Source: an uncultured Armatimonadetes bacterium
GTDB lineage: Bacteria; Armatimonadota; UBA5829; DTJY01
Reading direction: 5' to 3'
DNA length: 64,000 nucleotides
Assembly (NCBI GenBank): GCA_963717145.1
Contig: OY970325.1
Coordinates: forward strand, 4,320,001-4,384,000
Shown piece after piece: positions 502 to 60,311 of this stretch; positions within the stretch are counted from its first letter, which is position 1, and each line of letters opens with the position of its first letter. The translations under genes were made by a program, and so were the position numbers. Under the pieces are notes generated by a model that had not been told where the DNA came from, did no database searches, and saw only the letters and a program-made list of their open reading frames with translations.

Positions 502-3213
502 TTACCTCTTTGTTTCAAGTGTGTAGCTCCCAGCGGGCACATGGGCGTTCACCGCTCCGGCGGAGTTGGCGTGGGCCGCCGTGCCGTCAGTGTCGCCGGG
601 CGCACGGAGTACGAGTGACGCGCCGGGAGGGAGGCCCTTCGCGGTGAGGGTGAACGCCCCGACGGATTGGGTATCGATGGCGAACTGCTTCCCGATCCCA
701 CGGACGGTGATCTCCACGGACGAGCCGGTGATCCAGATGTCGTAGGGCTTCAGCATGCCGGAACCGATGACGCGGTAGTTCGCCGGGAGTGCGATCGACT
801 TCGCCTTGAGCGCCTCTTCGTAGGCGTCGCGGTATCGGCCCTGGTCAAGGAGCTTCTGCGCACTCACGAGCAGCGCCCGGAGAACCCTCACCCCCGACCC
901 CTCTCCCTTCAGAAGGGCGAGGGGAGACGCTGACCCCCCTCGCCCTTCTGAAGGGAGAGGGGTCGGGGGTGAGGGTTCTCCGAGTTCGTCGATCAGGTTG
1001 AGGGTGTCCCTGCGCCAGGTGATGAGGAGGCTCTCCATGCGGCGGCGATACATCTTCGGCGTCGGCTGAGCGAGCATCCGGGCGATAGGCTTCCAGCTCT
1101 CCGGAGTGCCCTGGTTCGTATGGTGAGAGAACCGGCAGCCGTTCTCATACATGCCGCAGAGGTTCGGGATGAACCTGTAGGCATTGTTGTCGCCGTGGCT
1201 CTCGTAGTCGGAGCACGCTGCCCTGCCGAGTTCACGGGCGCGAAGATACGGCTCCGGTCCGCCGCCTAGCCCGACTCCCGCCTCGGGGTAGACCGCCTGC
1301 TCCCAGATCGGATGGAAGCGGTCATCGAGCGGGTAGCCCTTTCCGCCGACCCAGTAGACGTAGTTGCTCGCCCCACGATCATCCTTGGGGAATTCGATTC
1401 TGTCACCCTCGACGACGATTGCCTCCTTGCGGAGGTTCTGCCGCATCGTGTTGGAGATCATCTGGTTGAAGCGCGTCGGGTTCAGATGCAGCCACATCTT
1501 CTCGCGCTCATCGAGGCCGTCCGCCGGGTCGAGGTTCACCCCATCGCGGGCCGCGTCCTGGATGACCGACCAGTTGAAATCCATGAGCATATCAAGCCTG
1601 GGCACGCCGCTATTGACGCGGCCATAGCCGTCCTCGAAGACATCGACGATCTTCGTCCAGTAGCAGGGCTCGTCCTCGCCGATCATGCCGAGGAGGTTGC
1701 CGCCCATGCCGGCCTGCTCCATCCTGAGCAGCCAGGGATCGAGCTTGCGAACGGCATCCGCGATGCCATTCGACCGCGCCTCGTTCAGCACCGGGTTGTT
1801 CATCGTTAGCCACGGAACGCTCGACCAGTGGTTCGGCGTCGTGAGACCGTAGTGGACATCGTACCAGCCCGGCTTGCACGAGTCCATGTATTCTTTCAGG
1901 CCCGGGTCGTCGTAGTTGTCGAACTTGCTGTATGCGATCTGCTGGTACTCGATCGCGCGGAAGGTCTTTCCCTTGCCGTCGGAGGTGCCGAGCGGCGAGA
2001 ACGACCAGGTGGTCGGGAAGCCGGGCACGAATGGGACGTTCTTCTCCAGGACGAGCTTACCGAGCCCATCGGCGAGCGTCTGCATCTGGTCAGGCCCGCG
2101 CTGGAGGTATGCGAAGTCGACCGCGATCCCGATCGAGTCGCGCGCACCGGCCTCGTCGAAAACCTTGATCCACCGGTCGATCATGGCGGTATCCTTCACG
2201 GGGTCGAGCCGGGGGAACCTTGGGCAGATCACCATCGGCAGCATGAAGCGGCTCTCTTCGCAGTACATGTCGAAGTCCGAGTAGGCCCGGAGCGACCGGA
2301 TGCGCATCCCGTAGCCGGACGTGTCCCGGAATGTGATCTTTGCGGTGGACTTGCCGGTCGGGGGGACATCGACGAAGTAGGTCATCAGGCCGGGCCCGTC
2401 ATCGACGAAATCCCTGAGATGGACCGACTTGCCGTCGACCAGGACGCGGTAGAGGGTGCGGTCTCCGTTGCGGGCCTCGTCGTTGACCTCCTGGACCTCG
2501 AGCGTCCACATGCCGGTCGCCGGGACCTTGACCTGGTAGCTGATCTCCCTCGGCTTGAACGCCGGCACGGGAGAGGGTGGGGCATAGACCGCGAACTCCT
2601 GGATCCTACGGTAGATCGCCTGGTGCTTCGGGCCGTTGATGCAGCGCATTCGGAGCTTGCTGGCGGTCAGGTTGAGGCCGGGGAGGACGATGAGTGGCCC
2701 CTTGTTCCCTCTGATCCGCGCGATCGGGTGCTCGGTGTCCCAGGCGGATCCATCCCAGCGGAGGAGGTCGAAATCGCTGAGGGCATAGCTCGCCCACGTC
2801 TTGATCATCACCTTGCCGATGCGCGTCGGAAGGCCGAAATCAAGGTCCCAGGTGGACTCCTTCTCGTCCGAGGCGTCGTTCGTCCACGTGCCGTCCGCGC
2901 CGTCGAGCGGCCCCCAGACGTCGTATCCCGCGGATGTCGTGCCGGCGGTGGGACGCGGATAGCCCTCCTTCGCGAGGTTGAGGGCGAGGTTCTTGGGCTC
3001 GGGATTGATCGCGGGCGTCGTCCGGCAGAGGTAGAACTCGCTCCGCAGGCCGATGCTCCCGCCGCACTTCTCGATCTTCGATCCGAACTCCTTGACCTTG
3101 TGCGCCTTCTCCGACGCCGGATCCGAGGTCAGGACATAGTCGGTCTGCCCCGCCCCGAAGGCATGGGTGCTGAGCATCAGCATGGCAAGGAAGAGAAGAG
3201 TCCTGGGGAACAT
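502..3213 (-). CDS. Large secreted protein with a discoidin/F5-8-like domain and a probable glycoside-hydrolase-like domain
   Basis: 903-aa ORF with a signal peptide and a discoidin-like WDLDFG...RIQEFAVY segment. It contains an in-frame palindromic insertion. Confidence 0.7.
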   Translation of the reverse strand: MFPRTLLFLAMLMLSTHAFGAGQTDYVLTSDPASEKAHKVKEFGSKIEKCGGSIGLRSEFYLCRTTPAINPEPKNLALNLAKEGYPRPTAGTTSAGYDVWGPLDGADGTWTNDASDEKESTWDLDFGLPTRIGKVMIKTWASYALSDFDLLRWDGSAWDTEHPIARIRGNKGPLIVLPGLNLTASKLRMRCINGPKHQAIYRRIQEFAVYAPPSPVPAFKPREISYQVKVPATGMWTLEVQEVNDEARNGDRTLYRVLVDGKSVHLRDFVDDGPGLMTYFVDVPPTGKSTAKITFRDTSGYGMRIRSLRAYSDFDMYCEESRFMLPMVICPRFPRLDPVKDTAMIDRWIKVFDEAGARDSIGIAVDFAYLQRGPDQMQTLADGLGKLVLEKNVPFVPGFPTTWSFSPLGTSDGKGKTFRAIEYQQIAYSKFDNYDDPGLKEYMDSCKPGWYDVHYGLTTPNHWSSVPWLTMNNPVLNEARSNGIADAVRKLDPWLLRMEQAGMGGNLLGMIGEDEPCYWTKIVDVFEDGYGRVNSGVPRLDMLMDFNWSVIQDAARDGVNLDPADGLDEREKMWLHLNPTRFNQMISNTMRQNLRKEAIVVEGDRIEFPKDDRGASNYVYWVGGKGYPLDDRFHPIWEQAVYPEAGVGLGGGPEPYLRARELGRAACSDYESHGDNNAYRFIPNLCGMYENGCRFSHHTNQGTPESWKPIARMLAQPTPKMYRRRMESLLITWRRDTLNLIDELGEPSPPTPLPSEGRGGSASPLALLKGEGSGVRVLRALLVSAQKLLDQGRYRDAYEEALKAKSIALPANYRVIGSGMLKPYDIWITGSSVEITVRGIGKQFAIDTQSVGAFTLTAKGLPPGASLVLRAPGDTDGTAAHANSAGAVNAHVPAGSYTLETKR
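879..981. repeat. REP-like palindrome (CCCTCACCCC type) inside a CDS
   Basis: Near-perfect inverted repeat ggagaaccctcacccccgacccctctcccttcagaagggcgagggg...gggttctcc. Relatives at 27327-27364 and 55748-55836. Confidence 0.9.
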
Positions 3214-3288: not shown

Positions 3289-3475
3289 GCCTCTCGTTAT
3301 GCCACCAGAGTGGCTACTCGAGGAGATCGGTCTGTCTCTTTCCGGGCTGCCCAGCCCCAACCGATCTCCTCGAGTAGCCACTCTGGTGGCATAACGAGAG
3401 GCCAGACGGGTTTGACCCTGCGCACAGCCCCAACCGATCTCCTCGAGTAGCCACTCTGGTGGCATAACGAGAGGC
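3289..3475. repeat. Three copies of a 43-bp structured repeat (forward 3289-3331, reverse 3360-3402, reverse 3433-3475)
   Basis: gcctctcgttatgccaccagagtggctactcgaggagatcggt and its reverse complement. Confidence 0.95.
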
Positions 3476-3477
3476 CG

Positions 3478-3822
3478 TCACACCTGCGCATCACCACCGC
3501 CGAAGCGCTGCGCCTTGTGCTTCTCGAACTCGTCCCAGTCCTTCTTCTTCGCTGCGGCTGAGACTGCGCAGAAGTCACCACGCACGAGCGCGGCTTTCTT
3601 CGCCTGACTCCACTTCTTCACCCTCAGTTCGGCCAGCTTGGCTTCTTCGCGCGTGGGCAAGGCTTCAGACCACACCAGTTCGACGGGCCTTCTGATGGTA
3701 GTGTAAGCACACTTGCCGCCTGCCTGGTGCTCAGCAAACCGGTTTTCCAGGTCATCGGTGTGGCCCACGTAGTAGGTGCCATCGGCACAGAGCAGCATGT
3801 AGACAAAGAACGGTTTGGGCAT
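3478..3822 (-). CDS. GIY-YIG nuclease (UPF0213/YhbQ-like)
   Basis: FVYMLLCADGTYYVGHTDDLENRFAEHQAG...YTTIRRPVELVWSE...AELRVKKWSQAKKAAL. Confidence 0.92.
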   Translation of the reverse strand: MPKPFFVYMLLCADGTYYVGHTDDLENRFAEHQAGGKCAYTTIRRPVELVWSEALPTREEAKLAELRVKKWSQAKKAALVRGDFCAVSAAAKKKDWDEFEKHKAQRFGGGDAQV

Positions 3823-3846
3823 GTCCTGTCTCCATAGGTTGGGTTG

Positions 3847-3959
3847 GCCTCTCGTTATGCCACCAGAGTGGCTACTCGAGGAGATCGGTTCTTTTCTTGC
3901 CGGGCTAGCCAGACCCGTCTAGCCTCGAGTAGGTTTCTCTGGAAACCATAGCGAGAGGC
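3847..3959. repeat. 43-bp repeat (forward) plus a diverged inverted copy upstream of the GIY-YIG gene
   Basis: Exact copy at 3847-3889. The variant at about 3923-3959 has the stem GGTTTC-CAGA-GAAACC. Confidence 0.9.
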
Positions 3960-3967
3960 GGTCAGAT

Positions 3968-4808
3968 CTAGCCCATCTTCCGGCAGCGGGCGATGTAGTG
4001 GTAGACCAGCTTGCCTGTCACGGCCTCGACCTCGAGCGCGTGGGAGAGAAGCTCACGCAGCTCGTCCAGCTTGAAGCGGAAGAAGTAGATGCCGCCCTCG
4101 TGCGCTCCCTCCTTCTCGCCGAAGAGCCGCGTCAGGATCGAATGCTGGTATGCCGATATCACGAGCCGCTCGCCACCCTTGAGCACGCGCGCAAGCTCAT
4201 TGACCGCCGACCTCCGGCTCTCGTGCGTCGGTATATGCTCGAGCACCTGGCAGCTCACCACGCGGTCGAAGCTCTCCGATCTGAGTGGCAGACGGCAGAT
4301 GTCGGCCTGGATCAGATCGACGTTTCGAATTCCCGCGCGTCTGAGCTTGGCCTTGCACCTGCAGAGTGACTCCCAACTGAAATCGACCGAAACCGAGCCG
4401 GCTGCACTTCGACGCGAAACTGCGGGTCATGCGCCCGGTCCCGCATCCGGCTTCGAGGAGGCGATCTTTGCCTGATAACCTAAGCTGACGAAGGGTGACC
4501 GGTATCTCCAGCAGGCCAAACAGGTTGAGGTACCACATGCGTTCGTAGTCCTTGACCTGGGAGTCGCGGGCGCGCATCTCGGTACGTTTGCGGGAGACTG
4601 CATGGTCGCCGGAATCGTGGGAGGAGCACAACTCTGAGGGCAGCATGCGGACGATGCCCTTCTCGATCGGGTATTCGCGGTGGCACTCGGAACAGGTGAG
4701 CGCACCTGAGACGACCTCGTCCATTCCGGCGAGGCGGTTCGCGTGCAGGGTCAGCTCCGACTCGCATCCGGCCGGGCAACTCAGTGAAGGGAGGATCGAT
4801 GGATTCAT
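3968..4808 (-). CDS. Trm112-like N-terminal domain plus class I SAM methyltransferase, frameshifted near 4400
   Basis: CPAGC...CSECHREYPIEKGIVRML and LEAGCGTG are in one frame, while VSCQVLEHIP...ELARVLKGG is in another. Confidence 0.8.
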
Positions 4809-4853: not shown

Positions 4854-4976
4854 GTTCGTGCGGATTTGCAATCCAGCACGCATTGGCAAAGTGGGAACTG
4901 TGATCCGGTCGCAAGCAGACTGGGCATCACAGATGCCGGTTTGCCCTCGGGTGCTGGATTACAAATCCGCACCAAC
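4854..4976. repeat. Inverted REP pair (GGATTTGCAATCC type)
   Basis: gtgcggatttgcaatccagcac ... gtgctggattacaaatccgcac. Confidence 0.8.
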
Positions 4977-4999: not shown

Positions 5000-5944
5000 T
5001 CACTTTGCTTTCGGTTTCAGATGCTTCTCGAGGAACTTGTCGATCTTGTCATCCACATCGGGACGAGGCGGCCAGCCGTGCTTTCCGTCCTTCACGAGGT
5101 AGAAGTCCGACTCGACGCCCGCCTTCCTGAGGACCTTGTTGAGCAGCTCGCCCTGACTCGCAGGCGTCAACGGATCCAGGCCGCCGTGGAAGATGTAGAA
5201 CGGCGCATCGTCTTTCGATGCATAGGTCGTCGGGCTGGCTTTGCGGCACAGCTCCGGGTGCTCGAAGTACTTGACGCCGAGAAGGTGCGATATCGACTCC
5301 TTGCCATCAAGAGGCAGGAAGCGGGCAGTTGACTTCCCGGCCTTTGCCAGTTCATAGATAGCCAGGAAGTCGGTCATGCCGTAGTACTCGACGACTGCCT
5401 GGACGCGGCTCGACTCCGCGGCCCATCCGCCGTCGCCCTCGAACTCCTTGATGCCGCCGGTGACGCCGAGCATAGCGACGAGATTGCCGCCCGCCGAGCC
5501 GCCCCAGACGCCGATGCGGTCGGGATCGAGGTTGTACTCCTTCGCATGGGCTCGGAGAAACCTGATCGCGCACTTGCAGTCCTGGAGTTGCGCCGGGAAG
5601 CGCGCTTCGTAGGCGAACCGGTAGTCGATCGTGATGCCGACGTAGCCTTGCTTCACAAATCGTTCCAACCGCTTGTAGCCATCGGTCCTGCTGCCCGAAA
5701 CGAAGCCGCCGCCGTGGATCCACACCAGGACCGGCATCGGGTTCTTCGGCAGTTTCTTGAGCCGGAGGATATCCAGCCTGTGCTTGACGTTTCCGTCGGG
5801 GCTGTATGCGATGTCCTTGATCAGTTCCATGTCGTCCGGCGCCTTGAACTCGGGCTTCGGCGCGGGCTCGGGCGCGGCCTCTTCAGCCGCGGAGAGAGCC
5901 GCCGCCAGTCCGAGGATCGCCAGGACCAGAATAAGCTTGATCAT
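5000..5944 (-). CDS. Secreted alpha/beta hydrolase (HSL/BD-FAE-like esterase)
   Basis: HGGG oxyanion motif, GGSAGG nucleophile, C-terminal H..D and HG motifs, signal peptide. Confidence 0.92.
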   Translation of the reverse strand: MIKLILVLAILGLAAALSAAEEAAPEPAPKPEFKAPDDMELIKDIAYSPDGNVKHRLDILRLKKLPKNPMPVLVWIHGGGFVSGSRTDGYKRLERFVKQGYVGITIDYRFAYEARFPAQLQDCKCAIRFLRAHAKEYNLDPDRIGVWGGSAGGNLVAMLGVTGGIKEFEGDGGWAAESSRVQAVVEYYGMTDFLAIYELAKAGKSTARFLPLDGKESISHLLGVKYFEHPELCRKASPTTYASKDDAPFYIFHGGLDPLTPASQGELLNKVLRKAGVESDFYLVKDGKHGWPPRPDVDDKIDKFLEKHLKPKAK

Positions 5945-6885
5945 TTCAGTTTGCTTCCCTTCCCAAGATGCTTTTCGAAGAACTCCACGACCGGCTCGCC
6001 CAGATCGGGACGCCCGGGGAAACTGTGACCGATATCCTTGATGATCTGCAAGGTAGAATCGACACCAGCCCTATTGAGCGCTTCATGGAACGCCACGCTC
6101 TGATCGAGCGGAACGGTGTCGTCCTTGTCGCCGTGCATGATCAGAAACGGCGGAGCACCCTTCTTGACGTAGGTGATCGGGCTTGCCCTCTTGCATGCCT
6201 CCGGATTCTCCCAGATTACGCCGCCGACGAGTGCCGAGAGCCGTTCGGCGATGTCGCCCGTCACCCACGTCTCCTTTGTCGCACCACGAGCTTTCTCTTC
6301 CATGGCGGTCTTGTAGATGTCCATCCGGCCGAACCAGTCGCAGACGGCCTGCACCCGGCTCGACTCCTTCGCCCAGCCGCCCTTGCCCTCGAACTCCCTC
6401 ACGCCGCCGGTCACTCCGAGGAGGGCGACGAGAGTGCCGCCCGCCGATCCGCCCCATGCTCCGATGTGACCAGGATCGGCGTTGTATTCCTTCGCATGAG
6501 CGCGCACCCATCGCACCGCGCACTTGCAGTCCTCGATCTGGGCCGGGAAGATCGCCTCGCCGCTGAGCCGGTAGTCGATCGTGACGCAGAAGAATCCGCG
6601 CTGGGCCAGCGGTATCAGACGCCGAATGCCGGCGCCCTTGTTCCCGGACCGGAAGCCGCCGCCGTGAACGAAGATGACCACAGGCATAGGGTTCTTCAGC
6701 CGGACCGTAGGGCGCACGATGTCGAGCTTGAGGGATATATCGCCGCCCTTGCCGTACTCGATGTCGTGGATGACCTCCACGTCGGACGGGATAACCAGTT
6801 CCGGCTTCGGCGCAGGTTCCGCCGCCAATGTGCCGGCAGTCATCAGAATGGCAATCAGGGCGCAGCAGACGGTCAGTGTTGTCAT
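5941..6885 (-). CDS. Secreted alpha/beta hydrolase (paralogue 2)
   Basis: HGGG, GGSAGG, HGDKD, GHS. ATGA overlap with its neighbour. Confidence 0.92.
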   Translation of the reverse strand: MTTLTVCCALIAILMTAGTLAAEPAPKPELVIPSDVEVIHDIEYGKGGDISLKLDIVRPTVRLKNPMPVVIFVHGGGFRSGNKGAGIRRLIPLAQRGFFCVTIDYRLSGEAIFPAQIEDCKCAVRWVRAHAKEYNADPGHIGAWGGSAGGTLVALLGVTGGVREFEGKGGWAKESSRVQAVCDWFGRMDIYKTAMEEKARGATKETWVTGDIAERLSALVGGVIWENPEACKRASPITYVKKGAPPFLIMHGDKDDTVPLDQSVAFHEALNRAGVDSTLQIIKDIGHSFPGRPDLGEPVVEFFEKHLGKGSKLK

Positions 6886-7799
6886 TTCTGTTTGTTCACT
6901 TTGCGCAGATGCTTCTCGAAGAACTCCACGACGGGCTTATCCGCGTTGTACTTTGGGCCGAAGCCGTGCCCCGCGCCCTCCAGTATCTTCAGCGTGGCAT
7001 CGACTCCCACCTTCTTGAGGGCGTCGTAGAAGACCTGGCTCTGGCTCAACGGGACGAGCGGGTCCTGGTCGCCGTGCATGATAAGGAACGGGGGATCGTC
7101 CTTGCTGACATATGTGATGGGGCTCGCCTTCCTGCAGACATCGGGCTTCTCCCAGAACTTGCCGCCGACGAGCAGCGAGATCGGGTCGGTCGCGCCGAGT
7201 TTTGCGATCTGATCCTCGGTCATGCCGGCCTTTCTCGCGTCCTCGGCGATCTTGAGGAAGTCGGTCGGGCCGAACCAGTCGCAGACAGCCTGCACCTTGC
7301 TCGACTCCTTCGGGTAGCCACCCTTGCCTTCGAGGTCCTTCGCGCCGCCGGACGTGCCGAGTAGCGCGACGAGATGCCCGCCGGCCGAGCCGCCCCAGAC
7401 TCCGATGCGTATCGGATCGGCGTTGTATTCCTTGGCATGAGCGCGCATCCAGCGGATCGCGCACTTGCAGTCCTCGATCTGGGCGGGGAAGATCGCGACA
7501 TCGGTGAGCCGGTAGTTGATCGTGGCGCAGAAGTAGCCCTTTTGTGCGAGCGGGATCAGGTGCTGAGTGCCGCCCTGCTTGTCGCCGCCGCTCCATCCAC
7601 CGCCGTGGACGAAGATGACGACCGGCATCGGGTCCTTCGGCGTGACCTTTGGGCGCACGATGTCGAGCTTGAGGGACACCCCGCCGCCCTTCCCGTACTC
7701 GACGTCGCGGATGACTTCGACGTCTGACGGAATCTGTGCGAGCGCGGGGATGCACATCGCGAGGACGATCAGTATGGCAGTGATGATGCGCTTTCTCAT
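6882..7799 (-). CDS. Secreted alpha/beta hydrolase (paralogue 3)
   Basis: HGGG, GGSAGGHL, HGDQD, GAGHG. Confidence 0.92.
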   Translation of the reverse strand: MRKRIITAILIVLAMCIPALAQIPSDVEVIRDVEYGKGGGVSLKLDIVRPKVTPKDPMPVVIFVHGGGWSGGDKQGGTQHLIPLAQKGYFCATINYRLTDVAIFPAQIEDCKCAIRWMRAHAKEYNADPIRIGVWGGSAGGHLVALLGTSGGAKDLEGKGGYPKESSKVQAVCDWFGPTDFLKIAEDARKAGMTEDQIAKLGATDPISLLVGGKFWEKPDVCRKASPITYVSKDDPPFLIMHGDQDPLVPLSQSQVFYDALKKVGVDATLKILEGAGHGFGPKYNADKPVVEFFEKHLRKVNKQK

Positions 7800-7874: not shown

Positions 7875-8104
7875 GTAGGGAACGGAACGGGACGGCGGCG
7901 CGTTCCCCACATGATGATCAACCGCAAAGACGCAAAGGACGCCAAGACGGAACGGGACGGCGGCGCGTTCCCCACATGATGATCAACCGCAAAGACGCAA
8001 AGGACGCCAAGACGGAACGGGACAGCGGCGCGGTCCCTACATGATGATTGACCACGAAGACGCAAAGGACGCCAAGACGGATCGGGACGGCGACCGTTCC
8101 CTAC
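7875..8104. repeat. Tandem 65-bp composite repeat, about 3.5 copies
   Basis: Units start at 7882, 7947, 8012 and 8077: acggaacgggacggcggcgcgttccccacatgatgatcaaccgcaaagacgcaaaggacgccaag. Confidence 0.9.
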
Positions 8105-9399: not shown

Positions 9400-9496
9400 G
9401 GTTTCTCCTTCGGAGCGCGGAATCAGGCTACTGTAAACATTGTAGGGTATGAGCCGACAAGCAGTCAACTGATCAGCGGTGCATTCGAGTTCAGCA

Positions 9497-9905
9497 GGTC
9501 AGCCTCTCGTTATGCCACGAGAGTGGCTACTCGAGGAGATCGGTTGGGTGGCCTGCGCAGGGTTGGTCAGCCTCTCGATATGCCACGAGAGTGGCTACTC
9601 GAGGAGATCGGTCGGGTGGTCTGCGCAGGGTTGGTCAGCCTCTCGTTATGCCACCAGAGTGGCTACTCGAGGAGATCGGTTGGGTGGCCTGCGCAGGGTT
9701 GGTCAGCCTCTCGATATGCCACGAGAGTGGCGACTCGAGGAGATCGGTTGGGTGGCCTGCGCAGGGTTGGTCAGCCTCTCGATATGCCACGAGAGTGGCT
9801 ACTCGAGGAGATCGGTTGGGTGGCCTGCGCAGGGTTGGTCAGCCTCTCGTTATGCCACCAGAGTGGCTACTCGAAGTAGCCACTCTGGTGGCATAACGAG
9901 AGGCT
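9497..9905. repeat. Tandem array of the GIY-YIG-associated repeat: six direct copies (68-bp period) plus a terminal inverted copy
   Basis: Cores start at 9502, 9570, 9638, 9706, 9774 and 9842. The inverted copy ends at 9904. Confidence 0.95.
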
Positions 9906-9945
9906 AACCCACGCTGCGCAAATGCGACCGCAGACCGGATCGCAG

Positions 9946-12688: not shown

Positions 12689-14189
12689 GAAAGAGTTCAC
12701 GATCGTTGATAGTGAAGTTTGTCAGGCTGGATCGGTCGCGGGTGTCTGAGGAACGCCCATGAGCATCCGCCGGCATGACTCCATCGCATCTTCGCCGCGC
12801 AAGTGCCATGTCCCGAACAGACTCATGAGCGCCATTCGGGTCTCCGATCCTTTGGCCGAGCGTGTGCCGCCACTCACCTTCCGGGCCGTTACCGCAGGCC
12901 GGATCGCCCGCTCGGCGGCGTTGTTTTCAGACGGCACTTCTGGATGCTCCACAAAGACAAACATCTCCGGCAGGAACTTCTCGATCCGTTCAGCGAGTAT
13001 TCGCTGGGGAACATCCCGCTTCAGATATGGCTTGGCGAGCCGATACAACTCTTCCTCGAATGCGATCCGCTGCTTCTGCCCGGCCTTCGAACCATCGCCC
13101 GAAAATGCCTTCGCGCGCCTGTAGATGGCCTTGACCTTGCCCACCCAGACTGCTACCCCTCTCTTGTCAGGGTTCGCCTCGACGAGCGTTCGCAAGTCCC
13201 GCAGGTAGTGCACCCAGCACCGCTGATGCCGCCCCAAGAGCACGTTGTAACCGCAGTAGAAGTCGCTTACGACTACACCGCCGTAGTCCTCTCCCAGCAC
13301 ATCCTTTGCGACCTCTCCGCTCCGACTCTTGTCTCGGATGAAGTAGCGCACGCGTGGCGTCGAGAAGCTCCAGATGTATCCGTTCCTCCCGTCTTCCCGC
13401 CAGCCGGTCTCATCCGCGTTCACCGCAGGGCTTCCCCGCACCGCATGAAGAAGCTTCTCTACCTCCGACTTCCCCATGGATGCTACCGTATGTAGTATCT
13501 TTGTGATCTCTCCGCGCCCGAGATGCAGACCGTAGAGTGATTCCAGAAGCTTCTGCACACGCTCGACCGGCATTCTACCGACCGTGTGGAGATAGCTCAC
13601 CAGGCTCATCAGCCGGATGCCCACCCGGTGCGTTCCGACTACCTCTCCAGAGAGATCGAGCTTCGGCATATGCCTCTTGTGGCAGACTCCGCAGTACCGT
13701 CCGATCACCCTGTGCTCGATGACCCTGACCGGTGCTATCGGTATCTCGATTACCTGCCGGCTGTGATGCACCGTGCCGCCGGAGAGCTTCCTGCCGCAGT
13801 CGGGACAGATGTCGAGCGCATGCTCCACGATCTCAGTCGGAGTCTCCCTCAGCCGCGCAAACGACTTCTGTCGCTTCTTGCGGTCTTTCTTCTTGCGCTC
13901 GGGCCGGTTTGCCTTCACAAAGGCAGGAATCGTCCTGCCGCCGCCACCGAGCTTGGACCGGAGTTCCTCGTTCTCCTTCTCAAGCGCTCGGACGCGTTCG
14001 GTCAGGGTGTCCATCCCTTCACGCAACTCCAGGACGGCCTGATGCTGCTCTCGGATCGCCTGGTGCTGCTCCAAGACGATGCCGATCAGTTCTTCTCTTG
14101 ATAGGTTGCCGAGATCGTTCACAACCTACCATTCGACAGCCGATCCTGGGGTACTCTTCCTCAGATTATCAATGATCGTGAACTCTTAC
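12689..14189 (-). mobile_element. Single-ORF IS66-family element (ISBst12-like organisation)
   Basis: IRs g(t/a)aagagttcacgatc(a/g)ttgata. An 8-bp TSD CACGTTGT lies at 12681-12688 and 14190-14197. Confidence 0.9.
12722..14122 (-). CDS. IS66 transposase (TnpC-like)
   Basis: Coiled coil, CPDCG zinc finger, ADETGW, SDFY, QRCWVHYLRD, NNAAERAIRP. Confidence 0.93.
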   Translation of the reverse strand: MNDLGNLSREELIGIVLEQHQAIREQHQAVLELREGMDTLTERVRALEKENEELRSKLGGGGRTIPAFVKANRPERKKKDRKKRQKSFARLRETPTEIVEHALDICPDCGRKLSGGTVHHSRQVIEIPIAPVRVIEHRVIGRYCGVCHKRHMPKLDLSGEVVGTHRVGIRLMSLVSYLHTVGRMPVERVQKLLESLYGLHLGRGEITKILHTVASMGKSEVEKLLHAVRGSPAVNADETGWREDGRNGYIWSFSTPRVRYFIRDKSRSGEVAKDVLGEDYGGVVVSDFYCGYNVLLGRHQRCWVHYLRDLRTLVEANPDKRGVAVWVGKVKAIYRRAKAFSGDGSKAGQKQRIAFEEELYRLAKPYLKRDVPQRILAERIEKFLPEMFVFVEHPEVPSENNAAERAIRPAVTARKVSGGTRSAKGSETRMALMSLFGTWHLRGEDAMESCRRMLMGVPQTPATDPA

Positions 14190-60220: not shown

Positions 60221-60311
60221 CACCGTCAGTCCTGAGTGCGAAGCGTAACGAAGGACGGCTCGGTCCAATAAGGCCGTCCTTCGTTACGCTTCGCACTCAG
60301 GACTGACGGTG
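60221..60311. repeat. CGTC-type REP inverted pair
   Basis: caccgtcagtcctgagtgcgaagcgtaacgaaggacggc...gccgtccttcgttacgcttcgcactcaggactgacggtg. Confidence 0.9.

What the first reader, a model, noticed from the sequence alone, without database searches (positions are those of the whole stretch)
3289..3959. GIY-YIG nuclease bracketed by its own structured repeat family: a candidate RAYT/REPIN-like system with a different enzyme
Seen: a 114-aa stand-alone GIY-YIG gene has the 43-bp repeat 2 nt from its stop codon and about 24 nt from its start, in inverted orientation. Each side also carries a REPIN-like inverted doublet with related spacers (five copies in total), and the same repeat forms an array 6 kb away. 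Established: REP/REPINs flank and are processed by HUH Y1 RAYT transposases. Inference: here a GIY-YIG nuclease occupies the RAYT position and may recognise, nick and spread these hairpins. No RAYT gene is present in this window.
Basis: partly seen in the sequence, partly recalled or inferred. Interest (0 to 1): 0.85.

Follow-up and report, generated by a model that had tools for sequence, protein, structure and literature searches.

The report
Hairpin-flanked nuclease, sister of Ssn
A tiny DNA-cutting enzyme gene sits between two copies of a hairpin repeat that is scattered through the genome; this kind of pairing was published in 2025 for the Ssn nucleases, but this gene belongs to a separate branch with a different repeat and shows signs of having moved between sites.

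Summary
In detail: a 114-aa GIY-YIG gene with hairpin units 24 nt before its start and 2 nt after its stop, tags pointing outward. The link is general. 59 of 79 homologue loci have the same bracketing, against 0 of 403 shifted controls. Among 101 sphingomonad-family genomes the median repeat count is 62 with the gene and 1 without. The idea itself is not new: Chenal 2025 (PMC11893778) showed that small GIY-YIG 'Ssn' nucleases cut single-stranded DNA beside their flanking hairpins, and drew the RAYT/REP parallel. This protein, however, falls outside my Ssn-proxy clade, nearer UPF0213/YhbQ. Its CCG-tagged, tandem-GA hairpin does not match the published Ssn motif, and I found no paper on this branch. 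The orthologous site in two related genomes lacks the gene, which points to a mobile cassette. Caveats: the exact 43-mer, including the array 6 kb away, spreads mostly inside a MITE of a DDE insertion sequence; one relative has 209 units without the gene; no cutting or movement was shown. The scan reported this theme before on other DNA (30 notes; those shown mostly call it undescribed) and the MITE in this genome.

The parts
3478..3822 (-). Stand-alone GIY-YIG nuclease gene, 114 aa, with Y8, Y18, G20, R28, H32 and E65 in place; member of a hairpin-flanked clade next to UPF0213/YhbQ
3847..3889 (-). Unit A, inner 5' end of the cassette: CCG tag outward, hairpin toward the start codon (24 nt away)
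3433..3475 (+). Unit A, inner 3' end of the cassette: inverted, tag outward, 2 nt from the stop codon
3360..3402 (+). Unit A, tandem duplicate of the 3' end unit (73-nt period)
   Evidence: (family D6)
3289..3331 (-). Unit A, outer left; matches in place and orientation the left arm of the gene-less doublet at the orthologous site of G006
3915..3959 (+). Unit B, outer right: variant with compensatory changes in both stems; matches the right arm of the G006 doublet
3332..3359 (.). Spacer of the left tag-to-tag doublet; related to spacer 3890-3914, together giving a 70-nt direct repeat round the cassette
   Evidence: (D3)
3890..3914 (.). Spacer of the right tag-to-tag doublet
9477..9929 (-). Array of unit A (six direct copies plus a fold-back copy) inside degenerate ends of a MITE that shares 22-bp ends with a 1433-bp IS; TCAA lies 16 nt outside one end
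60223..60309 (.). Gene-less tag-outward doublet of the C subtype, without MITE ends: one of 58 such doublets counted in the genome

Best explanation
The gene and its two inner hairpin units form a compact cassette of about 0.46 kb: tag-hairpin, nuclease gene, hairpin-tag. The protein is most likely a single-domain, metal-dependent endonuclease that recognises the folded single strand (CCG tag, 4-bp stem, tandem GA/GA mismatch, variable inner hairpin) and cuts just outside the tag, as SsnA does beside its CGTC-tagged hairpin. Cuts at both outward tags would free either the whole cassette or gene-less doublets, which host repair or recombination would then insert elsewhere without a target duplication. 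SHOWN here: anatomy, structural conservation of the unit, family-wide flanking, genome-level co-occurrence, patchy occupancy of orthologous sites, absence of a target duplication, intact catalytic residues. INFERRED: binding, cutting, cut position and the route of insertion. A separate layer is a MITE of a Mutator-like DDE IS that captured an A/B doublet and multiplied it; this accounts for most copies of the exact 43-mer.
For: Unit architecture: 194 of 201 stem-agnostic matches in the genome have a perfect 4-bp outer stem, in 5 sequence versions; the reversed-genome control gave 1 match, 0 paired. Flanking (forward unit upstream and reverse unit downstream within 200 nt): 59 of 79 scorable homologue loci, 0 of 403 shifted windows, 4 of 5000 random windows. 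In two further taxon samples 25 of 26 high-scoring loci have a unit on at least one side and 12 of 26 on both; for lower-scoring, mostly plain UPF0213 genes the figures are 2 of 25 and 0 of 25; E. coli yhbQ has none. Genomes: median 62 units in 33 genomes with the clade, 1 in 68 without; 70 or more units in 15 of 33 and 0 of 68. The A/B subtype was found in G006, which has the closest enzyme (72%), and in 0 of the 4 other relatives tested. Mobility: 87 loci fall into 34 neighbourhood groups; the orthologous site holds a doublet only in G006 and neither gene nor visible unit in G001; one sphingomonad gene junction is filled in L001, L130, L132 and empty (4 and 10 nt) in L128, L131. 58 gene-less tag-outward doublets show no target duplication above a shuffled null. 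Purifying selection: pN 0.16-0.26 against saturated pS 0.77-0.83. Precedent: PMC11893778.
Against: No activity was measured. G008 (one contig, about 100% complete) has 209 units, and G032, G035 and G009 have 46, 17 and 8, without a gene of this clade; in G008 the sites looked at lie mostly inside other composite repeats. 10 of 68 sphingomonad-family genomes without the gene have 20 or more units, and 7 of 33 with it have fewer than 20. In this genome the 77 free loci are of the C subtype, while the A/B subtype that flanks the gene is free at only 3 loci, two of them the cassette's own sides; no C-type paralogue was found. The closest homologue (L085) has its downstream unit in direct, not inverted, orientation. 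Patchy occupancy can be loss: recombination between the 70-nt direct repeats would leave a doublet like that of G006. Kin are not independent, so the genome statistics overstate.
Confidence: 0.6

Rival explanations
1. Domesticated Ssn-like nuclease. It binds and cuts the hairpins, but its job is to trim incoming or exposed single-stranded DNA, or to clear cruciforms; the repeats are spread by other means (MITEs, slippage, recombination), and the gene is gained and lost with them.
For: SsnA lowers the integration of repeat-bearing transforming DNA in Neisseria (PMC11893778). The A/B subtype is MITE-borne here. Repeat-rich genomes without the gene exist. The fold is close to the Slx1 branched-DNA nucleases.
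Against: 77 loci of the C subtype have no IS ends and the doublets have no target duplication, so this DDE transposase does not explain them. The gene sits in many neighbourhoods and in 1-3 copies per genome, unlike a fixed host gene. All genomes with 70 or more units carry it.
Confidence: 0.27
2. Coincidence. The gene is an ordinary UPF0213/YhbQ-type repair nuclease, and the repeats are MITE cargo that landed beside it.
For: The best solved relatives are the UPF0213 proteins 1ZG2 and 1YWL. Most exact 43-mers are inside the MITE.
Against: The cassette lacks the MITE ends. Plain UPF0213 genes form a separate group and lack hairpins. Flanking is 59 of 79 against 0 of 403.
Confidence: 0.04
3. The hairpins act at RNA level (transcript stabilisation, termination or feedback control of the nuclease gene), and DNA recognition is not the point.
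For: The units sit at a nearly fixed distance before the start codon in many homologues; compensatory changes fit an RNA structure as well as a DNA one.
Against: The downstream unit lies on the opposite strand, so a transcript would carry its complement, which lacks the GA/GA motif. No terminator-like site and no Rfam match at gathering score. SsnA does not act on RNA (PMC11893778).
Confidence: 0.06

Closest known systems
Ssn nucleases (SsnA, CDD cd10448) with NTS/SRM repeats; Chenal et al. 2025, PMC11893778
   Same: Single-domain GIY-YIG of about 100 aa; gene between inverted, tagged hairpin repeats that are also dispersed in the genome; same catalytic positions (SsnA Y6, Y17, E64 match Y8, Y18, E65 here by spacing); the authors themselves compare the layout with IS200/IS605, REP and BIME.
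   Different: The protein groups apart from my Ssn-proxy clade (100/100 on a long branch; 142 against 53 bits). The tag is CCG, not CGTC/TGTC. The SRM search pattern has no match round this gene and none on both sides in 87 clade loci. In the text I read the paper reports no empty sites or gene-less mini-cassettes.
REP/REPIN with RAYT (HUH Y1) genes; PMC3116915, PMC2817692 (search listing only; features otherwise recalled)
   Same: A tagged hairpin unit, inverted doublets, arrays, a dedicated nuclease gene bracketed by units, no long target duplication.
   Different: The enzyme is GIY-YIG, not HUH; there is no GTAG tag. RAYTs are described as single-copy and vertically inherited (abstracts), whereas this gene occurs at many sites. 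The genome's own Y1 genes carry other repeats.
CGTC-tagged REP superfamily; Di Nocera et al. 2013, PMC3733652
   Same: Tagged hairpins, mostly head-to-head dimers, reported to lack a dedicated transposase; CCTC and TGTC tag variants are named (passages), and CCTC-tagged GA hairpins flank members of this clade.
   Different: The CCG tag and nested inner hairpin are not in the passages seen. The consensus figure is not held, so overlap with their families 2-4 could not be checked.
UPF0213 / YhbQ / YazA-type small GIY-YIG proteins (PDB 1ZG2, 1YWL; Slx1 lineage)
   Same: Best sequence and fold matches; nearest group in the tree.
   Different: Plain UPF0213 genes lack flanking hairpins. The clade has its own conserved C12 and K-x-W-x-x-x-K-K-x-A motif.
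MITEs of promoter-targeting Mutator-like IS (ISKra4 / ISLre2 groups; Guerillot et al. 2014, PMC3942029)
   Same: Explains the A/B copies: 22-bp ends shared with a 1433-bp IS of 12 copies whose protein hits UPF0236; 9-bp duplication in 19 of 25 MITEs; TCAA/TTGA 14-18 nt from an end in 17 of 25, against 2.8% at random.
   Different: The MITE's whole interior is a captured doublet of the nuclease's hairpin; the cassette itself has no such ends.

Membership tests
Ssn (cd10448) | Single-domain GIY-YIG of about 100 aa with intact catalytic residues | tested here: met
   114 aa, one Pfam domain; Y8, Y18, R28, H32 nearly invariant and E65 invariant in 50 sequences
Ssn (cd10448) | Falls in the cd10448 clade; hits SsnA at E below 1e-10 | tested here: not met
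   Proxy test only, as SsnA and the CDD profile were not held: GTC-tag-flanked proteins form a separate group (100/100); window protein 142 bits to its own clade and 53 bits to the proxy; best E to proxy members 3e-10 to 2e-6
Ssn (cd10448) | Flanked by NTS/SRM motif (published pattern) | tested here: not met
   0 matches within 500 nt of the gene; 0 of 87 clade loci flanked on both sides, 1 of 87 on one side; the pattern did match L090, L100, L101 (3 of 21 others), so it works but is narrow
Ssn (cd10448) | Gene flanked by its own oriented hairpin repeat that is dispersed in the genome | tested here: met
Ssn (cd10448) | Sequence-specific cleavage of single-stranded DNA upstream of the tag | not testable with these tools
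   needs purified protein
RAYT/REPIN | HUH Y1 transposase domain (PF01797) | tested here: not met
   Protein is PF01541; no Y1_Tnp match in the window
RAYT/REPIN | GTAG/GT(A/G)G tag at the hairpin foot | tested here: not met
   The tag is CCG, preceded by A in 150 of 195 units
RAYT/REPIN | Dispersed inverted doublets of the unit without the gene | tested here: met
   58 tag-outward doublets
UPF0213/YhbQ housekeeping group | Groups with YhbQ and plain UPF0213 proteins; no flanking repeats | tested here: not met
   Separate group 90/88 against 94/84, neither starred, 94 columns, unrooted; hairpins 25 of 26 against 2 of 25
MITE of Mutator-like DDE IS (for the dispersed A/B copies and the array) | Terminal inverted repeats shared with a resident IS, 9-bp duplication, insertion about 16 nt from a -35 box | tested here: met
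   the window's array copy has degenerate ends and no clean duplication (5 of 9); ISKra4 versus ISLre2 was not told apart by me
MITE of Mutator-like DDE IS (for the nuclease cassette) | IS ends round the cassette | tested here: not met
   No end motif beside 3291-3473 or 3849-3880

The most novel reading that the evidence does not exclude
This is an autonomous mobile element of about 0.5 kb whose only protein is a hydrolytic GIY-YIG nuclease from the UPF0213 side of the superfamily. It cuts single-stranded DNA outside its CCG-tagged, tandem-GA hairpins, moves itself and gene-less mini-copies with the help of host repair, leaves no target duplication, and is the missing mobiliser of a very widespread class of bacterial hairpin repeats. 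It would be a second family of sequence-specific ssDNA nucleases beside Ssn. The direct repeat round the cassette and the tag-to-tag doublets would be traces of a circular intermediate joined tag to tag.
Probability: 0.3. Interest if true: 0.8.

Novelty: new variant of a known kind. Interest (0 to 1): 0.5.

Why it matters
Sequence-specific nucleases for single-stranded DNA were first described in 2025, from one clade. A second clade with a different tag and a tandem-GA hairpin would widen that toolbox, and it is easy to test: a 114-aa protein and three natural substrate variants. It also bears on an open question stated in PMC3733652, namely what spreads the hairpin repeats that have no transposase. 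The filled and empty orthologous sites found here make the mobility question, which the Ssn paper only raised, directly testable. The locus also shows one repeat unit being used by two unrelated systems, the nuclease cassette and a DDE-type MITE.

Tried and rejected
(1) First idea that the MITE explains all copies: true for the exact 43-mer, wrong for the family; a looser pattern found 200 units in 110 loci, 77 of them C-type without IS ends. (2) Repeat flanks a RAYT elsewhere: 0 of 7 Y1_Tnp loci have four core words of the A/B unit within 2 kb (the C subtype was not probed there). (3) Target duplication at doublets: none above the null. (4) Empty sites within the same genome through multi-copy flanks: no clean case among 58 doublets in the part of the output shown, which was cut. 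(5) Decayed second paralogue in the genome: not found. (6) Sequencing runs: no RNA holder listed. Four low-share runs were laid: three hold a near-full copy of the gene (14-20 differences in 370-424 nt) on contigs that end at the hairpins, one holds a 154-nt piece; a joint 3327-3959 rests on one contig with 26 letters inside a repeat and was not used. (7) Rfam: only miRNA hairpin models below gathering score. (8) Promoter/terminator scan: nothing. (9) NCBIfam: no family at cut-off. (10) Repeat subtype on the protein tree is clustered (13 changes against 34 shuffled, 82 of 87 loci labelled), but kin share labels and my rule mislabelled some rows as 'nested', so it is weak support only. (11) G006-versus-G000 junction alignments: one site (L213) is clearly empty in G000, but at about 80% identity no exact ends can be read. 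(12) The tree is a quick tree; its automatic tag labels are loose and were not counted. (13) The third GIY-YIG match of the genome (E 8e-5) was not characterised.

Full report
OBSERVATION. The gene (3478-3822, minus strand, 114 aa) is a single GIY-YIG domain (model pLDDT 92). Four identical 43-mers and one variant surround it at the stated distances. Read on the tagged strand, a unit is: CCG tag, a few unpaired bases, a 4-bp stem, GA, G, an inner hairpin, C, GA, and the stem's partner. The two inner units point their hairpins at the gene and their tags away from it. The reading of GA/GA as a tandem sheared pair is from my own knowledge, not from a tool.

THE UNIT IS A CONSERVED STRUCTURE. A pattern that does not fix the stem finds 201 units in the genome; 194 have a perfect outer stem, in five versions; the reversed genome gives 1 match. 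Inner hairpins differ in length and sequence and still pair.

TWO POPULATIONS IN THIS GENOME. The exact 43-mer has 49 copies at 28 or more of 43 matches. Most lie in a MITE of about 175 bp whose 22-bp ends are those of a 1433-bp IS with 12 copies; its protein hits Pfam UPF0236. Of 25 MITEs with both ends, 19 have a 9-bp duplication and 17 have TCAA/TTGA 14-18 nt from an end, against 2.8% of random sites. This is the promoter targeting described for ISLre2 and ISKra4 elements (PMC3942029, passages). The array at 9477-9929 is such a MITE with internal expansion. The cassette has no IS ends. A looser pattern gives 200 units in 110 loci: 77 C-type loci without IS ends, 29 A/B loci with them, 3 A/B loci without, 1 mixed. 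58 C-dominated doublets have the cassette's own layout with a short spacer in place of the gene, and no target duplication above a null.

THE LINK HOLDS ACROSS THE FAMILY. Of 233 related loci the tool returned the best 80, mostly Sphingomonadales. 59 of 79 scorable ones have a forward unit upstream and a reverse unit downstream within 200 nt; shifted windows 0 of 403; random windows 4 of 5000. In samples of 201 genomes each from two other groups (54 loci returned, 51 with full flanks), 25 of 26 loci at 105 bits or more have a unit on at least one side, against 2 of 25 below, and those two are damaged members of the clade. Among 101 genomes of one sphingomonad family, 33 carry the clade (E 4e-33 or better, next class 3e-19); median unit count is 62 against 1. 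Among the 41 genomes of the window's own family and class, four of the five with more than 100 units carry a close homologue. Against: G008 has 209 units and no such gene; 10 of 68 gene-less sphingomonad-family genomes have 20 or more. Kin are not independent. Translated repeat peptides occur in 66 of the 150 best library proteins against 7 after shuffling, a rough sign that the link extends over many 50%-identity clusters.

SIGNS OF MOVEMENT. The window's site is syntenic in two relatives. G006 has a bare A-spacer-B doublet between the same two genes; G001 has neither gene nor visible unit there. Both carry their own clade genes elsewhere. In the window the cassette sits between the arms of that doublet with the left arm plus spacer repeated directly (70 nt, 89%), as expected either from integration of a tag-to-tag circle or before a deletion; the direction cannot be told. 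A small methyltransferase gene beside it is also missing from both relatives. 87 clade loci fall into 34 neighbourhood groups. One junction is filled in three sphingomonad genomes and empty in two; a third lacking it has another neighbour (I read the flanking genes as yqeY and dnaG from recall, untested). In many sphingomonads the frame runs on into the next gene, which fits the SPOUT fusions noted in PMC1564403 (passages).

WHAT IS KNOWN. Ten paper searches. One search found Chenal et al. 2025 (PMC11893778); I read parts 1-6 of 11 of the text (introduction, results, discussion, part of methods), Supplementary Data 5 and searched 12 of 14 supplements; figures were not seen. It shows that single-domain cd10448 GIY-YIG proteins are flanked by their own hairpins, bind and cut them as single-stranded DNA a few bases upstream of the tag, and lower transformation in Neisseria; its discussion likens the layout to IS200/IS605, REPs and BIMEs. 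The terms cd10456 and UPF0213 occur neither in its main text nor in the supplements searched; searches for GIY-YIG with 'repetitive extragenic palindromic' and with UPF0213 gave 0 papers; papers citing it concern other enzymes (listing). Subscription journals and patents are not covered. Di Nocera 2013 (passages and supplement search) states that CGTC repeats lack a dedicated transposase; its consensus figure is not held.

MEMBERSHIP. SsnA itself was not available, so I used GTC-tag-flanked proteins from related genomes as a proxy. A careful tree of 52 chosen rows (94 columns, unrooted) gives three groups: hairpin clade 90/88, plain UPF0213 with YhbQ 94/84, Ssn proxy 100/100 on a long branch (groups were chosen beforehand by sequence type and flanks). 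The window protein scores 142 bits on a profile of its clade built without it, and 53 on the proxy. The published SRM pattern misses it. Several proxy genes carry the same GA hairpin behind a TGTC tag, so the hairpin core is shared and the tag differs between the clades. It works like an Ssn system, but on these tests it is not filed as one.

MECHANISM. Shown: anatomy, conservation, association, patchy occupancy. Inferred from SsnA: single-strand recognition and a cut outside the tag. Inferred: release and re-insertion by host repair, since GIY-YIG enzymes hydrolyse and cannot join strands as HUH enzymes do (established knowledge). Unexplained: why the free doublets are C-type while the gene is flanked by A/B units (G006 has one enzyme for each; this genome may have lost one, or one enzyme may read both), and why unit A is better conserved in the MITE (0.019 mean difference) than the IS ends (0.09-0.11) and the spacer (0.26) (20 copies).

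VERDICT. Real and general, but a new variant of a published kind. The scan noted the theme 30 times on other DNA (8 shown) and the MITE at least twice in this genome; I tested both myself. The claim of most of those notes that the pairing is undescribed does not hold for the concept. Interest 0.5.

Noticed in passing
window 878-982: Perfect 47-bp inverted repeat inserted in frame in the 903-aa ORF 502-3213; I recall this repeat type from DUF559 genes, untested.
   Followed up: no
window 3968-4808 (-): Trm112-like N-terminus and methyltransferase domain lie in two overlapping frames, so a frameshift near 4400 is likely; the gene is absent from the orthologous sites of G001 and G006.
   Followed up: partly
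window 4854-4976: REP-like inverted pair; G001 has a similar-looking short palindrome at the orthologous gap.
   Followed up: no
window 5000-7799 (-): Three tandem paralogous alpha/beta hydrolase genes at about 945-nt spacing (only the first was scanned).
   Followed up: no
window 7882-8092: Three copies of a 65-nt tandem unit; part of it also interrupts one MITE end at G000 3801054-3801168.
   Followed up: no
window 12722-14122 (-): IS66-family transposase.
   Followed up: no
G000 Y1_Tnp loci 242007, 827258, 1557731, 3783917, 4479024, 5159789: Each of these genes is flanked by its own distinct repeat, mostly GTAG-tagged, so the genome runs several REP-like systems in parallel.
   Followed up: partly
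G000 3762211-3762341 and 3764642-3764772: C-type doublets nested in the spacer of a GTAG-type REP doublet.
   Followed up: partly
G000 102572, 2517077, 4819016: Three of 58 doublets lie inside long open frames, possibly in-frame insertions.
   Followed up: no
G008 (L123-L127): 209 units, in the loci seen mostly single and embedded in a larger composite repeat, with no gene of this clade: possible second case of hitch-hiking.
   Followed up: partly
L092 (G004); L099, L107, L110, L111 (G020): Other small GIY-YIG genes are flanked by other repeats: tRNA-like copies in L092, long GC-rich hairpins in G020.
   Followed up: no
L085 (G006 C12 50054-52683): The closest homologue sits in a cluster of nine A/B units with short tandem repeats made of unit fragments, one running into the gene's 3' end.
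   Followed up: partly
G000 MITE copies, e.g. 1100229, 4183792, 4556972: Chimeric arms (B outer stem with A inner stem) point to sequence exchange between the two arms.
   Followed up: partly
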